Source of the DNA: Escherichia coli
GTDB lineage: Bacteria; Pseudomonadota; Gammaproteobacteria; Enterobacterales; Enterobacteriaceae
Assembly: GCF_044647545.1 (NCBI RefSeq)
Contig: NZ_CP172818.1
DNA length: 64,000 nt
Reading direction: 5' to 3' (one strand)
Shown here in pieces: positions 3,001 to 9,000 of the stretch. A program made the position numbers. The number at the start of each line of letters is the position of its first letter. The stretch's first letter is position 1.

Positions 3001-6000
3001 CATTCAGTCCAGCCACGCCAAACGGCCCTTCCCGCAGGGCGCACAAAAGCTGGTACTCATTGAACGCCTGAATGATTAAATCCGGCTCGGCACGCGCTTG
3101 CAGCAGATCCAGATAACGTCCGTAACCCGCAAGAGCTTCCTCAAGCATCGCAATATAATCTTCGCCGCTCTGTAAAAGCCGTTTTTCGATATCAGAAAAA
3201 TCCTGCTGAAAAACGGTTTTCACTGCCGTTTTATCACCACGGTTGATCGCCGCAGCTAACTGACCAATGCCAGAATCGCTGCCGAAACGATAGCTTTTTT
3301 GCAACAGGCAGAGACTGTCGCGCAAAGATGCCGCTTCTGTGCCAGTTCCTGCCGGAACGTGAGTTCCCGTCAGGCGGCTTAGCTGCCCGGCACGCTCGGC
3401 GGTAAAGCCGGCATTGGCATAAGCACAAATATCGCCCAGCACAGCCCCAGCCTCAACCGAGGCCAGTTGATCACGATCGCCGAGAAAGATCACTCGCGCA
3501 TGATCGGGCAAGGCGTCTATCAGTCTCGACATCATCGGCAGATCGATCATTGACGCTTCATCTACCACCAGCACATCAAGATGCAGCGGGTTACCGGCAT
3601 GATGGCGTAAACGCTGGCTACCTGGCTGCGCGCCCAGCAATCGGTGCAAAGTACTGGCATCTTCCGGAATGCGTTTCTTTTGTTCATCGGTCAGCGGTAA
3701 CTGGCGCAAAGCCTTGCCGAGAGATTCGGTTAAGCGCGCGGCAGCTTTACCCGTTGGTGCAGCCAGACGGATACGGCAGCGTTCGCCGTCGGCCATTTGA
3801 ATTAACGCTGCCAGCAACTTCGCTACGGTGGTCGTTTTACCGGTGCCAGGGCCGCCGGAAATCACTGAGATCCGCCGCGTCAGCGCCACTGCCGCCGCAA
3901 CTTTTTGCCAGTTAATTTCATCGCTTACTGGAAAAAGTTTGTCCAGGGTTTGCGCCAGTAGTGCTTCATCAACCTCAATGGCATGATTCACTTCGTTGAA
4001 AAAGCGTGCCACTGTGCGCTCGTTACACCACATGCGATTCAAATAAAGACGATCGCCACAGAGGATCATCGGCGTTGGTTCATCTCCCCGGCTGACCGCT
4101 TGTGAAGCCAGCAAGCATTCTTCCCAATTTTGTAGCTCACCGATTTCACTGACACAGGTCGCCAACAGCGGATGCGATGCCTCGTTATTTTCCAGTCGTG
4201 AAAGCGGCAAACAAACGTGTCCCTCTCCGGCATCATGACTTAACAGTGCCGCCGCGAGGGTGACGGCAGGATGTTCATCTCCCGCCACGGTCAGGGCAAA
4301 CTGCACGTCCAGCGGGCGTAGCTGTTTGTGCTCCACAGCTTCCAGTAATTGCTTTTGCAATTTCATTACGCCTCCTCCAGGGTCATACCGGCAAACATCT
4401 CATCCATCAGGTCAATCAACCCGGCGTTGGGTCGGGTCGCGTAGATCCCTTGTTGCGGATGTTCTTTATCAACGCCACGCAGGAACAGATAAATAACGCC
4501 GCCAAAGTGGCGCTCATAGTCGTAATCAGCAATGCGATGGCGCAGATAACGGTGCAGCGCCAGGGTATAAAGCTGATATTGCAGATCATAGCGGTGCGCC
4601 TGCATTGCCGCTGCCATAGCCTGTTGGGTGTAAGCCGAACTGTCTTCACCCAGCCAGTTGGATTTATAGTCGAGCAGGTAATAACGCCCTTCGTGGCGGA
4701 ACACCAGGTCGATAAAGCCTTTTAACATGCCACGTACCTGCATGAACTCCAGCGGCGGGCAGCCAGCGGATAGCGGGTCAAACTGGCGAATTAGTGCATC
4801 AAGCTGACTGGCGATAAGCGGTTCACTAATCGGCAGGTAAAACTCCATCTCCACCTGTTTATCGCGATCGGAAAGCTGATTCAGGCTAACACCCGTTTCA
4901 TTGAGAGGTGCCTGGAGGACAGCCGTGATCCACTCAGTCAACACCGGTTCCCACTGCGGTTCAAAGCCGCCGAGCTCCAGTTTTTCCTGTACCCAGTTCG
5001 GGTCAACCGGCTGGGTAAAATCGAGGTCTTCAAACAAACTGTGCAAGAATGTCCCCGGTGACGCACCGCGCGGGAACTGATGCGGTGTTAACGTCGGTTC
5101 TTCAACGACGCTGACCACGCCTGCGGCATCAACATCCAACCGTGGCATCAGATCCTGAGCGATACCGTGACCACGCTGCTGCAAACCGGAGTAGCTGGTG
5201 ACACGCCAGTTATCGCCGGGCAATCGTTGTAGCGTCCTCGCATTCAGTTCTGCAGTTAATGCATCATTAACCTGCCAGGGCTGGTTATCACCAGTTTGTG
5301 CCGTTTGCCAGGCAATATCATCATCGCATAACGCTTCAATACAGGTGCGAAGCCCTGCCGCATCTTGCGGTTCCCCTTTTTGCAGCAAACGCCCGAGCGC
5401 ACTTTGGTGGACGTCGGTATCACCTTTTTTATCGCCACGACGGCGCACCAGCGGTGCAACGCCGAGACTGCAATGCCAAACCGAACGCGTCAGCGCCACG
5501 TAAAGCAAACGCAGATCTTCCGCCAGACGTTCGGCCTCCGCGAGGTCGACGCTTTCTGGCGCAGCATTAAGATCCAGAACAGCCTCAAACGAGTGGCGAT
5601 CGTGATAAAACGCCTGATCCTGGACGCGGAAATTGGTGATAAACGGCAGCCAGACCAATGGATATTCCAGCCCTTTCGATTTGTGGATCGTGACAATCTG
5701 CACGAGATGTTTATCACTTTCGAGACGCATTTGTTGGCTGGAGGCATTACTGTCTGGCTCGAGGATATGTTGCGATAACCAGCGTACCAGCGCATGTTCA
5801 CTTTCCAGCTGCGTGCCGGCTTCTTGTAGCAATTCGCTGATATGCAAGATATCGGTAAGACGCCGCTCACCGCCTGCTGTTGCCAGCAAGTTTTCTGCAA
5901 TGTTACGCGCCGACATCAGCGCCCGCAGCATCGGCATAACGCCACGTTTGCGCCAGATTTGCCGATAACCATCGAACTCTTCGACTACCGCATCCCACGC

Positions 6001-9000
6001 ATGTTCGTCATTATTCAGCGTTTCAATATCCAGCGCATTCAGCCCCATCATTGACGTTGCCAGCGCACTGCGCAGGGTGTTCTCACGTTCGGGTGTCATC
6101 ACCGCCTGCAACAGCCAAAGCATCTCCTGTGCTTCCAGAGTTTCAAAAACACTGTCGCGGTTCGAAAGGTAAACGGAAGGGATTTCCAGCAGCGTTAAGG
6201 CATCGCGCACCTGAGCGGCCTCCTGGCGGCTGCGCACCAGCACACTGATGTCCGAAGCACGCACCGGACGCGCGTCGTCGCCGTTCATCAGCAACGCTTC
6301 GCCCCGCTGTCCGGCTTGTAGCCAGTCGCGGATTTGCGCAGCACATACCTGCGCCATGGTACTTTGATAGTCGCCAACGCCGCAGCTTTCGCCTTCCATC
6401 AGCCACATTTTCATCGCAGGCTGCGTTTCACCTTTAAACACAAAACGTAACGCCTGATTTTTCCCGGCTGATTTCACTGGAATAAAAGGAATTTCGCGAA
6501 ACATGAACGCGTCATCAGTCTGACTGAAAAGTTTGTTAACGCTGTTCACCATTCCCGGTGCGGAACGCCAGTTGGTGTCTAAGGTGTAGTGGGCGTGAAC
6601 TTCGCTACGCGCCTTCATATAAGTGAAGATATCCGCACCCCGGAATGCATAAATGGCCTGTTTCGGGTCGCCAATCAGCAACAATGCGGTTTCCGGCTGA
6701 TGGTGCCAGATACGGCGAAAAATTCGGTACTGCTGGGGGTCGGTATCCTGAAATTCATCGATCATTGCCACCGGGAATCGCGTACGGATCGCCGCTGCCA
6801 ATACCTCGCCGCTTTCACTACGCAGCGCGGAATCGAGCCGACTTAACATGTCATCAAAACCCAATTCGCCACGGCGGCGTTTTTCACGCGCTACTGTTTC
6901 GCGGATCTCAGCTAATGCGCGAGTGATCACCAGATCGCGGATCGACAATGGTTCTGCAAGCAGTTGATCGATCGCCTCAAACAGTGGATGTCGCGGGGTT
7001 TCCCCCCGGCTTTCGTGCGATCTTCTAAGAAACGCTGAGAGAATTTTTCCAGCGACTCTGGCAACTGATAGCTGTTGGTCTCTTCTTCTGCCCAGGCGCT
7101 GATCTTGTCGATCCATTTAGCCTGATTGCTACGGTTAAACTTGCGTCGATCAATACCAGAAGATTCGATCAGCGCATCCAGTTCACCCACCGCGTCGCGC
7201 CACTGCTGTTTTACCGTATCAATACGCGCCACAATTTGCGCGTGGCGGGAAGCCAGCGTTTCATCATCGGGCGGCGGCGCTTTGATAACCGGCGCTTCGC
7301 CTTGCAGATAACGATTAATATCGCGCAGTAACGCCTGCGGCCCTTTCCAGGTTTCAAAGACGACCTGGGCAATTTCACGCGGCAGCGGGTAGCAGTGGCG
7401 ACGCCAGAAATCGGCGCAGGCCTGGTAACGTAGCAGAGACTCATCTTCAATCAGCTGCTGCTCAAACAGCATGCCGGATTCAAAGGCATTCAGGTTGAGC
7501 ATGCGCTGGCAAAAACCGTGAATAGTAAAGACTGCCGCTTCATCCATCTGCCGTTCGGCTAACAACAACCACTGCGCGGCTTGCGCTTTATCGTCGATCT
7601 CTTCCAGCAGGCGTTTGTACAGTGGATTGTCGGTGGTTTCACGCAGACAGGCGATGCGCAACTCGTGGATATTGCTACGGATACGACCGCGCAATTCTGC
7701 CGTGGCAGCCTCGGTAAAGGTGACCACCAGCAGTTCTTCAACGGTCAGCGGGCGGGGAAAGGCGGCAGAACCGCCTAGTCCAAGTAACAGGCGCAAATAG
7801 AGCGCCGCAATCGTAAAGGTTTTGCCTGTGCCGGCAGAGGCTTCAATCAGGCGCTCGCCCTGTAAGGGCAAGCGCAAAGGATCTAGTGTCTCGGCGACAT
7901 CACTCATTCTTTTCACTCATCAGGGGCATTGTTTGCTGCAACGCGCTGACGTTCTCCCACACTTTCCAGCCTTCAGGATGCACATATTCGGCTTTCCCGT
8001 TCTGGCTGCCGGAAATCTGCGACAGAATAGCCATACCTTGCGGCTCGACCACCGCCTGATGGAAGAAATCAGCAAGTTTTTGCGGCGTCAGCAGTTTTAT
8101 CTGGGCCACGATTTTATCACGCGAATCGAAGCGCATATTGCCGCGATCGAAATCTTTACTTAACTTCGATGCTTCTTCGCCGAGCGTTTGCGGTGCCTGC
8201 AGCATCTGGGTAATTACCGCCTGCTGGATTTGCGCAAACTCTTCTGGCTTCATCGCCCGCAGTTTCGCTTCTGCGGTCGGGAAAAACGCCTTGTAACGCT
8301 CCCACAAGAATGAAGGCTGTTTATCATTGCTTTGCAACAGGAAGCCCATGCCCCACTGACGCCCCACGCTCATTGGAAACGCAAACACGGCATAGCCCAA
8401 CTGTTCTTCGGTACGCAACTGATTGTAGAACCACGGCTGTACGATCTGCCCCAACAGAGAACTATACGCTGAACTGGTGTATTCATCGTAGCCAGTCGGT
8501 ACAAATACCGCTGCCAGTGCGGAGTCGGTGCTGTTACCGGCTTTTTCAAAGATGACGGATTGTTTTTTATCGACCACGACATCTTTGTTACGACACCACT
8601 CCGAACCATCAGCGCCCAACTGTTTTTGCACATCGCGTGCCAGCGTTGTTGCCTGGGCCTCGGTCATGTTGCCGATAACCATAAACTCTGGTCGAGCCCC
8701 TGATTTTAAGGCGTCGCGATAGGCCAGAACTTCTTTCAAAGTAATGGAGGGCAAAATTTTGCGCCGTTCATCTCGCGAGAAGTATGGTACTTGCGAGAGC
8801 ATCTGCGCGGGCATAATCGCCTGCTCGAACGCTTTGCCCTTTTCTGCAGAATCCATCATCTGGTTATACCAGGACTTCGCCTGCTCAAGCTGATCTTCCG
8901 TAGCGGTATAGCTAAAGTACCCCTCGAGCAATGCCTGGAACAGCTGCGGCAGGCGCTGGGTGTAACCATTGGCATTAACCATAAGGCCGTTGTTAGCATT

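What the first reader, a model, noticed from the sequence alone, without database searches (positions are those of the whole stretch)
4364..7907. Start/stop overlaps linking ptrA-recB-recD
The ptrA stop overlaps the recB start by 8 nt, and recB stop/recD start share TAATG, implying translational coupling along the operon. If the recB frameshift is real, the premature stop near 6927 would uncouple recD translation and give a polar reduction of RecD as well.
Basis: inference. Interest (0 to 1): 0.3.

Follow-up and report, generated by a model that had tools for sequence, protein, structure and literature searches.

The report
Known ptrA-recB-recD overlaps; doubtful recB frameshift
The gene overlaps joining ptrA, recB and recD are real, conserved and already described for E. 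coli, and the recB "frameshift" behind the predicted loss of RecD is most likely a one-base sequencing error in a run of seven Gs.

Summary
All three sequence observations are correct. On the minus strand, ptrA TGA (7902-7900) and recB ATG (7907-7905) overlap by 8 nt. recB TAA and recD ATG share TAATG (4368-4364). recB is out of frame and stops at TGA 6929-6927.

The overlaps are ordinary and already published. They are present in all nine annotated E. coli genomes sampled. In 80 Enterobacteriaceae species, recB-recD overlaps in all 79 readable junctions and ptrA-recB overlaps in all but one locus. recB has almost no Shine-Dalgarno sequence, so it is plausibly coupled to ptrA. recD has a very strong one.

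The frameshift is one base missing from recB's only G7 run (C6 at 7002-7007). It is the sole difference in 25 kb from at least 25 ST648-like genomes. The same deletion recurs in 30 unrelated RefSeq genomes that cluster by accession series. It also occurs in public run-level assemblies carrying further homopolymer deletions. I rate it about 85% likely a sequencing or assembly error, so the predicted RecD polarity probably does not exist.

If the frameshift were real, the effect would be softened. recD has its own ribosome-binding site and a reported internal promoter, a GTGA restart overlaps the premature stop, and RecD has no known role without RecB. Interest is low.

The parts
2540..4366 (-). 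recD coding sequence (608 aa), intact
   Evidence: ORF list. NCBIfam NF008127 exodeoxyribonuclease V subunit alpha, 1138.7 bits, full length. Same coordinates as the annotated recD of FDAARGOS_497.
4364..4368 (-). recB stop / recD start junction TAATG (1-nt overlap at 4366)
   Evidence: Read directly from the sequence. The same 1-nt overlap is described for K-12 in PMC2586629. All 79 readable junctions in 80 Enterobacteriaceae species overlap: 71 by 4 nt (ATGA) and 8 by 1 nt.
4371..4378 (-). Shine-Dalgarno sequence of recD (GGAGGAGG, core AGGAGG at 4376-4371) inside the last recB codons
   Evidence: The anti-SD duplex is -12.1 kcal/mol, against a median of -6.0 for 27 neighbouring genes. The structure is predicted largely unpaired. 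A GGAG-type motif is present at this position in most of the 80 species.
4366..7907 (-). recB, 3542 nt, reading frame broken in this window (3543 nt in relatives)
   Evidence: Intact recB of 3543 nt is annotated in ST648 and FDAARGOS_497.
7002..7007 (-). Homopolymer C6 on the + strand (G6 in the mRNA); relatives have 7. This is the site of the 1-nt deletion, at recB nt 901-907, codons 301-303 GGG GGG GAA
   Evidence: for the alignment; it is the only run of 7 or more in recB, and a G7 run occurs only in E. coli among the 80 species; it is one of two G/C runs of 7 or more in 48.5 kb.
6927..6930 (-). Premature stop TGA (6929-6927) of the shifted frame, overlapping an in-frame GTG (6930-6928) as GTGA; a possible restart site
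   Evidence: Gene callers open an 854-aa ORF at this GTG in public assemblies carrying the same frameshift. No Shine-Dalgarno sequence lies upstream (+0.3 kcal/mol).
7900..7907 (-). ptrA stop / recB start junction ATGAGTGA (8-nt overlap)
   Evidence: Read from the sequence. The recB upstream region has a very weak Shine-Dalgarno sequence, -2.5 kcal/mol. Among 80 species the script scored an overlap of 4 nt in 43 and 8 nt in 28. Eight more were mis-registered but still overlap, and only L023 has a gap.
7900..10788 (-). ptrA (pitrilysin / protease III, 962 aa), first gene of the operon
   Evidence: NCBIfam NF011681, 1854.7 bits, full length. Annotation of relatives.
10803..10838 (-). ptrA 5'UTR stretch matching the 36-nt Hfq-binding site whose deletion raises RecB translational efficiency in K-12
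   Evidence: The window sequence is TTAACCTGTTGAATCTGGCCAGAAAATAAAGTTGAT. The K-12 sequence quoted in PMC12342828 is TTAACGTGTTGAATCTGGACAGAAAATTAAGTTGAT. They match at 33 of 36 positions, compared by eye.

Best explanation
The region is the ordinary ptrA-recB-recD operon of an ST648-like E. coli.

**Junctions.** Both junctions are stop/start overlaps, so a ribosome finishing one gene is already positioned on the next start codon. For recB, which has essentially no Shine-Dalgarno sequence, initiation probably depends mainly on ribosomes terminating at the ptrA TGA 5 nt downstream of the recB ATG (termination-reinitiation). This helps explain why RecB is made at very low levels and why Hfq control at the ptrA 5'UTR reaches RecB. 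For recD, the 1-nt overlap is combined with a strong, accessible AGGAGG. recD can therefore be translated both by hand-over from recB and by fresh initiation.

**Frameshift.** The apparent recB frameshift is most likely an under-called G7 homopolymer in the assembly and not a mutation in the organism. If so, the operon is intact and no RecD polarity exists.

**Shown:** the overlaps, their conservation, the Shine-Dalgarno strengths, the nature of the lesion and its recurrence pattern.

**Inferred:** the coupling mechanism, and that the deletion is an error.
For: **Overlaps and operon**
- The overlaps are read directly from the sequence.
- Identical junction geometry is annotated in all nine E. 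coli genomes sampled.
- In 80 species, recB-recD overlaps in 79 of 79 readable junctions. ptrA-recB overlaps in all but one locus. The exact form changes (1, 4 or 8 nt) while overlap is kept.
- Shine-Dalgarno duplex energies are recB -2.5 and recD -12.1 kcal/mol, against a neighbourhood median of -6.0.
- PMC12342828 describes a polycistronic ptrA-recB-recD operon with the recB ribosome-binding site inside ptrA, and suggests coupling. It also reports that deleting the Hfq site in the ptrA 5'UTR raises RecB translational efficiency.
- PMC2586629 describes the 1-nt recB/recD overlap and a recB-recD operon.

**Frameshift as an error**
- It is a single base missing from recB's only G7 run.
- It is the only difference in 25,000 nt from at least 25 genomes.
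- 30 RefSeq complete genomes carry the identical 81-mer, out of 5424.
- They fall into a few accession series, yet strains within one series differ by 143-503 SNPs per 22 kb.
- recB is flagged 'frameshifted' in all 7 sampled.
- One of these assemblies also has a C5-to-C4 deletion in ppdC.
- Run-level public assemblies encoding the same 326-aa fragment carry extra 1-nt deletions at A6, A5 and T4 runs, with 0 mismatches otherwise.
- The window itself has a degenerate poly-A stretch at 42442-42598 and two A-run length differences.
- Homopolymer deletions are the dominant error of long-read assemblies (PMC12007338).
Against: - No reads are available, so a genuine very recent slipped-strand deletion in this isolate cannot be excluded.
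- Four of the seven sampled RefSeq genomes with G6 show no other frameshifted gene within 30 kb. The site is therefore hit far more often than its neighbours. A mutational hotspot would also look like this, although this is also one of only two long G/C runs in the region.
- Coupling itself has not been demonstrated experimentally for either junction. The literature only suggests it.
- The strong recD Shine-Dalgarno sequence and the reported internal promoter mean recD need not depend on coupling.
Confidence: 0.8

Rival explanations
1. The 1-nt deletion is a real, recent slipped-strand mutation in this isolate. RecB would be truncated after 326 codons, about 300 native residues followed by a short out-of-frame tail. 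The cell would lack RecBCD. The roughly 2.56 kb of recB mRNA downstream of the premature stop would be poorly translated. recD expression would then fall through loss of ribosome hand-over and Rho-dependent polarity.
For: - The sequence as given carries the deletion.
- G7 runs are classic slippage sites (established knowledge).
- The rest of the window is nearly error-free: 0 differences over 14,176 nt at 49825-64000 and 1 indel in the first 31 kb.
- Several RefSeq genomes with G6 have no other frameshift nearby.
Against: - The closest relatives, at least 25 genomes identical over 25 kb, all have G7.
- G6 genomes are polyphyletic but cluster by accession series.
- The same lesion co-occurs with other homopolymer deletions in raw-run assemblies.
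- There is no secondary decay in recB, recC or recD.
- recB-null E. coli have reduced viability (established knowledge), so wild isolates lacking recB should be rare.
- Even if the mutation were real, polarity on recD would be softened. The recD Shine-Dalgarno sequence is strong, a minor internal promoter is reported and a GTGA restart is present.
- Loss of RecD would have no known phenotypic consequence without RecB.
Confidence: 0.12
2. The recB G7 tract is a genuinely hypermutable (contingency-like) site that switches RecBCD off and on in natural E. coli populations. On this reading the G6 genomes in the databases sample real off-variants.
For: - The same deletion recurs in at least six distinct lineages.
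- The tract is E. coli-specific and is the only long homopolymer in the gene.
- It is sometimes the only frameshift in 30 kb.
Against: - The frequency is only 30 of 5424 genomes.
- Clustering by accession series, not by lineage, points to technology.
- Co-occurring homopolymer deletions in run-level assemblies point the same way.
- The tract is not conserved in sister genera. Escherichia albertii and E. whittamii read GCG GGG GGC in frame, and other genera have 5 Gs or fewer.
- No G8 or other length class was looked for.
Confidence: 0.04
3. RecB is made from the G6 template by programmed ribosomal frameshifting or transcriptional slippage at the G run, so the gene is functional despite the apparent frameshift.
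For: Only that a homopolymer lies at the shift site.
Against: - At least 99% of E. coli genomes encode RecB in a single frame with G7.
- No conserved slippery or stimulatory element exists in relatives.
- G6 runs are poor substrates for RNA-polymerase slippage compared with long A or T runs (established knowledge).
- RefSeq annotates these cases as pseudogenes.
Confidence: 0.01

Closest known systems
E. coli K-12 ptrA(ptr)-recB-recD operon, as sequenced in 1986 (Finch et al., Nucleic Acids Res. 14; recalled from memory, not held in the library) and described in PMC12342828 and PMC2586629
   Same: - The gene order is recC / ptrA-recB-recD.
- The ptrA/recB overlap is 8 nt, and the recB TAA / recD ATG overlap is 1 nt.
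- The recB ribosome-binding site lies inside ptrA.
- The Hfq-bound 36-nt stretch of the ptrA 5'UTR is present at 33 of 36 identity.
   Different: The window's recB has G6 instead of G7 at nt 901-907, which breaks the frame. The allele is that of an ST648-like lineage, about 2% diverged from other phylogroups.
Translational coupling by termination-reinitiation at overlapping stop/start codons (trpE-trpD, trpB-trpA, galT-galK; Oppenheim & Yanofsky 1980 and Schumperli et al. 1982, as cited in PMC12342828)
   Same: The stop and start codons overlap or interlock (ATGA, TAATG, ATGAGTGA). The downstream ribosome-binding site lies inside the upstream coding sequence. The overlap is conserved across species.
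   Different: Dependence of RecB or RecD synthesis on upstream translation has not been measured. recD carries a strong independent Shine-Dalgarno sequence, so its coupling is probably facultative.
Homopolymer-length indel errors in long-read (PacBio / Nanopore) or 454 bacterial assemblies, annotated by PGAP as 'frameshifted' pseudogenes (PMC12007338)
   Same: It is a single-base deletion in the longest G/C homopolymer of the gene. It recurs across unrelated assemblies, clusters by accession series, and is accompanied by other homopolymer deletions in raw-run assemblies.
   Different: The sequencing technology of the window's source is unknown. Apart from one junk stretch and two A-run differences, the window is clean.
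recB21 (IS186 insertion), the classical recB null allele
   Same: If the frameshift were real it would also inactivate RecB upstream of recD in the same operon.
   Different: recB21 is an insertion-sequence insertion, not a homopolymer frameshift. No IS element lies in the window's recB.

Membership tests
Translationally coupled operon junction (termination-reinitiation type) | Same-strand neighbours whose stop and start codons overlap or lie within a few nucleotides | tested here: met
   ATGAGTGA at 7900-7907 and TAATG at 4364-4368.
Translationally coupled operon junction (termination-reinitiation type) | The overlap is maintained in related species | tested here: met
   recB-recD overlaps in 79 of 79 readable junctions. 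ptrA-recB overlaps in all but one (L023) of 80 species.
Translationally coupled operon junction (termination-reinitiation type) | The downstream gene lacks a good independent ribosome-binding site (obligate coupling) | tested here: inconclusive
   Met for recB (-2.5 kcal/mol). Not met for recD (-12.1 kcal/mol, accessible).
Translationally coupled operon junction (termination-reinitiation type) | The genes are co-transcribed on one mRNA | not testable with these tools
   Literature only: polycistronic ptrA-recB-recD (PMC12342828); recB-recD operon plus a minor internal recD promoter (PMC2586629). The consensus scan found no sigma-70-like site between the genes.
Translationally coupled operon junction (termination-reinitiation type) | Translation of the downstream gene falls when upstream translation is blocked | not testable with these tools
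   This needs reporter fusions or ribosome profiling. There is indirect support only: deleting the Hfq site in the ptrA 5'UTR changes RecB translational efficiency.
RecBCD (exonuclease V) locus of Enterobacteriaceae | recC, ptrA, recB and recD orthologues in the canonical order | tested here: met
   NCBIfam equivalog hits for recB, recD and ptrA. recC is assigned from the matching coordinates in the annotated relative.
RecBCD (exonuclease V) locus of Enterobacteriaceae | An intact recB reading frame (1180 aa) | tested here: not met
   In the window as given, recB is split into a 326-codon frame and the remainder. I consider this probably an assembly error.
Genuine loss-of-function pseudogene | The lesion is inherited by close relatives (lineage-specific) | tested here: not met
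   At least 25 genomes identical over 25 kb all have G7. G6 genomes are polyphyletic.
Genuine loss-of-function pseudogene | Additional decay (further indels, stops or substitutions) in the gene or its partner genes | tested here: not met
   There are 0 other differences in 3.7 kb and in 25 kb.
Genuine loss-of-function pseudogene | The lesion is supported by independent reads or chemistry | not testable with these tools
   No reads for the source genome are available. The source is not in the RefSeq complete-genome set.
Programmed frameshift / phase-variable homopolymer locus | The slippery tract is conserved in orthologues, or both length states are common in the population | tested here: not met
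   A G7 run occurs only in E. coli; other genera have 5 Gs or fewer. G6 is in 30 of 5424 genomes.

The most novel reading that the evidence does not exclude
The E. coli-specific G7 run at recB codons 301-303 may be a true slippage hotspot. It would generate RecBCD-null (and, by polarity, RecD-low) variants at appreciable frequency in natural populations. Some of the 'frameshifted recB' records in public genomes, possibly including this window, would then be real off-state cells and not errors.
Probability: 0.05. Interest if true: 0.5.

Novelty: already known. Interest (0 to 1): 0.08.

Why it matters
There is little new biology here. The overlaps and the suggestion of coupling have been known for the K-12 operon for decades and were restated in 2025.

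The useful outcomes are practical:
- The predicted recB-null / RecD-polar phenotype should not be attributed to this strain without read-level confirmation.
- The recB G7 run is a recurrent trap. It makes an important repair gene appear as a pseudogene in at least 30 'complete' RefSeq E. coli genomes.
- The contrast between the near-absent recB Shine-Dalgarno sequence and the very strong recD one gives a concrete, testable picture of how subunit synthesis may be set within the operon.

Tried and rejected
- **Finding the source genome.** I searched the RefSeq complete E. coli set. No record carries the window's exact sequence: the best hit for 41-44 kb is 98.2%, and the best hits for 1-25 kb all have one extra base. 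Sequencing technology could therefore not be established.
- **Original 1986 papers.** The recD paper (PMC386327) is not held, and the Finch et al. sequence papers were not found. They are cited from memory only.
- **Published polarity of recB alleles on recD.** Searches found nothing explicit.
- **Consensus promoter scan.** It found no sigma-70-like site inside recB for the reported minor recD promoter. Only one site was found in the whole 8.8 kb, fewer than in shuffles, so this is uninformative.
- **Rut-like regions.** A search for C-rich, G-poor windows downstream of the premature stop gave only weak C-over-G excesses of at most 0.12. No conclusion on Rho polarity can be drawn.
- **Rfam scan of the whole window.** No RNA family lies in or near the operon.
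- **Programmed frameshifting.** Considered and rejected because the tract is not conserved.
- **Frameshift density as a quality measure.** Neighbouring frameshifted genes in G6 genomes gave a mixed signal: 3 of 7 had a second frameshifted gene within 30 kb and 4 of 7 did not.

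
Full report
**1. What is in the sequence**

The finding spans the minus-strand genes of the RecBCD locus. 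The ORF table and the raw sequence give these coordinates:
- recD at 2540-4366
- recB between 4366 and 7907
- ptrA at 7900-10788
- recC at 10964-14332

NCBIfam equivalog models confirm the identities:
- RecD: NF008127, full length.
- Pitrilysin: NF011681, full length.
- RecB: two fragments covering profile positions 2-315 and 292-1179 of 1181.

The ptrA stop TGA (7902-7900) and the recB ATG (7907-7905) form ATGAGTGA, an 8-nt overlap. The recB TAA (4368-4366) and the recD ATG (4366-4364) form TAATG, a 1-nt overlap. The frame opened at 7907 ends at TGA 6929-6927 after 326 codons. The remainder of RecB is read in a different frame.

**2. The overlaps are ordinary, conserved and already described**

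Identical junction geometry is annotated in every E. coli genome I opened: ST648, FDAARGOS_497 and seven others. The 3.7-kb region is present at 95% identity or better in 5424 of 5426 complete genomes.

I fetched the recB locus from 80 Enterobacteriaceae species and located the junctions by homology.
- **recB-recD:** overlaps in all 79 readable cases, 71 by ATGA (4 nt) and 8 by TAATG or TGATG (1 nt).
- **ptrA-recB:** 43 species have 4 nt and 28 have 8 nt. Eight more were mis-registered by my script but visibly carry overlapping stop and start codons.
- **Exception:** Intestinirhabdus alba (L023) has a 413-nt gap.

The form of the overlap changes between genera while overlap itself is kept. This argues for selection on tight juxtaposition. 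Overlaps of 4-16 nt are nevertheless frequent among neighbouring same-strand genes in this very window, for example ygdB/ppdB, ppdB/ppdA and lplT/aas. The feature is typical of operons and not special to this one.

The literature already contains the interpretation.
- PMC12342828 (eLife 2025) describes a polycistronic ptrA-recB-recD operon. [quoted passage not shown]
- The same paper shows that Hfq binds near the ptrA ribosome-binding site, and that deleting a 36-nt site in the ptrA 5'UTR raises RecB translational efficiency. That 36-nt site is present in the window at 10803-10838 with 33 of 36 identity.
[quoted passage not shown] - From memory, the overlaps were first noted in the 1986 sequence papers of Finch and colleagues. 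I could not retrieve these.

**3. How the junctions probably work**

I computed anti-Shine-Dalgarno duplex energies for the 20 nt upstream of each start codon.
- **recB:** -2.5 kcal/mol, near the weak end of 27 neighbouring genes (median -6.0, weakest decile about -2.4).
- **recD:** -12.1 kcal/mol (AGGAGG at 4376-4371), stronger than the strongest decile (-9.2). The motif is predicted mostly unpaired.

My inference for recB is that initiation relies largely on ribosomes terminating at the ptrA TGA, 5 nt past the recB ATG. This would tie RecB output to ptrA translation. It fits both the very low RecB copy number and the Hfq result cited above.

recD can be served both by ribosome hand-over at TAATG and by de novo initiation. 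PMC2586629 reports that wild-type-length RecD is still produced when the recB stop codon is removed in recB-recD fusions. This fits independent initiation at recD, which the authors attribute to its minor internal promoter. These mechanistic steps are inferred and not shown.

**4. The frameshift**

Alignment with strain ST648 shows that the only difference in 3.7 kb is one missing base in a homopolymer. The window has C6 at 7002-7007, and the relative has C7.
- In the mRNA this is the G7 run at recB nt 901-907, codons 301-303 GGG GGG GAA.
- It is the only homopolymer of 7 or more in the gene.
- It is one of only two G/C runs of 7 or more in 48.5 kb.
- Over the first 25 kb of the window, at least 25 genomes match with identical score and a span of 25,001 nt. 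This single base is therefore the only difference.

Four observations point to a technical origin.

*(a) Recurrence pattern.* Thirty RefSeq complete genomes carry the identical 81-mer with G6; the tool's 99%-or-better band counts 35 of 5424.
- They include STEC, ETEC, APEC, clinical and wastewater strains, and they fall into a few accession series. Examples are six in CP1465xx, five in CP183xxx-CP184xxx, three in CP1273xx and three in CP1227xx-CP1229xx.
- Strains within a series are unrelated. C25 and Ch1 differ by 503 SNPs in 22 kb, and strains 755 and 572 differ by 143.

*(b) Annotation.* recB is annotated 'frameshifted' in all seven sampled. One of them also has a C5-to-C4 deletion in ppdC.

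*(c) Run-level assemblies.* The exact 326-aa truncated product is on record on 25 contigs.
- In the run-level (Logan) assemblies that encode it, several contigs have 0 mismatches to the reference. They nevertheless carry additional single-base deletions at A6 (ptrA), A5 and T4 (recB) runs.
- That is the signature of long-read homopolymer under-calling described in PMC12007338.

*(d) The window itself.* Compared with FDAARGOS_497 it contains a 150-nt stretch at 42442-42598 in which G, C and T are dropped or replaced by A. It also has A7-to-A8 at 41222 and an A-run one base longer at 43324.

The source genome is not in the RefSeq complete set.

Some evidence points the other way. The window is otherwise very clean. 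Four of the seven sampled G6 genomes show no other frameshift within 30 kb. A real slippage event at a G7 run therefore cannot be excluded without reads.

I put the probabilities at about 0.8-0.85 for an error, 0.12 for a real recent mutation, and a few per cent for a true hypermutable site.

**5. If the frameshift were real**

Premature termination 2.56 kb upstream of recD would remove ribosome hand-over and expose untranslated RNA to Rho. Nonsense polarity is established knowledge, though my crude C-over-G scan was uninformative. Four things would blunt the effect.
- recD has a strong, accessible Shine-Dalgarno sequence.
- A minor internal recD promoter is reported.
- The premature TGA overlaps an in-frame GTG, forming GTGA at 6930-6927. 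Gene callers open an 854-aa ORF there. It could allow some reinitiation and keep ribosomes on the message, though no Shine-Dalgarno sequence precedes it.
- RecD has no known role in E. coli outside the RecBCD holoenzyme (my own knowledge), so losing RecD on top of RecB would be phenotypically silent.

Any restart product would lack the N-terminal ATP-binding motif (GTGKT at residues 26-30). It should therefore be helicase-dead.

**6. Comparison with known systems, and verdict**

This is the canonical Enterobacteriaceae recC / ptrA-recB-recD locus. The junctions belong to the well-known class of overlapping stop/start junctions associated with translational coupling.
- Membership by geometry and by conservation was tested and met.
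- Dependence of downstream translation on upstream translation cannot be tested here.
- The frameshift fails two tests expected of a genuine pseudogene. It is not inherited by close relatives, and there is no secondary decay.
- It also fails the test for a programmed or phase-variable site, because the tract is not conserved outside E. coli.

The finding is a correct reading of the sequence, but the biology is already known. The one potentially new element, RecD polarity caused by a recB frameshift, most likely rests on an assembly error. Interest is low.

Noticed in passing
window 42442-42598: A stretch of about 150 nt of degenerate A-rich sequence in the yqeK-downstream intergenic region. 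Compared with FDAARGOS_497, nearly every G, C and T is deleted or replaced by A. No RefSeq complete genome shares it (best match 98.2%). It looks like a local consensus or assembly failure and lowers trust in single-base calls in this assembly.
   Followed up: partly
window 48494-49824: A 1331-bp insertion-sequence element with 301-aa and 136-aa ORFs. The matching records annotate it as an IS3-like IS2-family transposase. It replaces about 16.9 kb of the ETT2 type III secretion island present in FDAARGOS_497 (reference positions 48519-65462 of the concatenated loci). The flanks are otherwise 99.9-100% identical.
   Followed up: partly
window 41222 and 43324: Two intergenic A-run length differences from FDAARGOS_497: A8 versus A7 at 41222, and an A-run one base longer at 43324. 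They could be natural tract variation or further homopolymer miscalls.
   Followed up: no
RefSeq genomes listed (e.g. NZ_CP027312.1, NZ_CP122768.1, NZ_CP166759.1, NZ_CP127314.1, NZ_CP183129.1): At least 30 'complete' RefSeq E. coli genomes carry the same G7-to-G6 change, and recB was annotated as a frameshifted pseudogene in all 7 sampled. The records cluster by accession series and not by lineage. This appears to be a recurrent database artefact affecting an important repair gene.
   Followed up: partly
L023 (Intestinirhabdus alba NZ_WMJZ01000003.1), upstream of recB at locus 2501: This is the only one of 80 species in which the PtrA C-terminus match ends 413 nt before the recB start instead of overlapping it. 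The sequence before recB there contains a GAGGA motif. It may have an independent recB ribosome-binding site or a rearranged ptrA.
   Followed up: no
window 28007-28094 and 28210-28291 (minus strand): The tandem sRNA genes OmrA and OmrB, found by Rfam RF00079 (96.6 and 86.1 bits), lie in the aas-galR intergenic region. This is the expected location and is unrelated to the finding.
   Followed up: no
window 10803-10838 (minus strand): The ptrA 5'UTR Hfq-binding stretch defined in K-12 differs at 3 of 36 positions in this ST648-like lineage. Whether Hfq control of RecB is unchanged is unknown.
   Followed up: no
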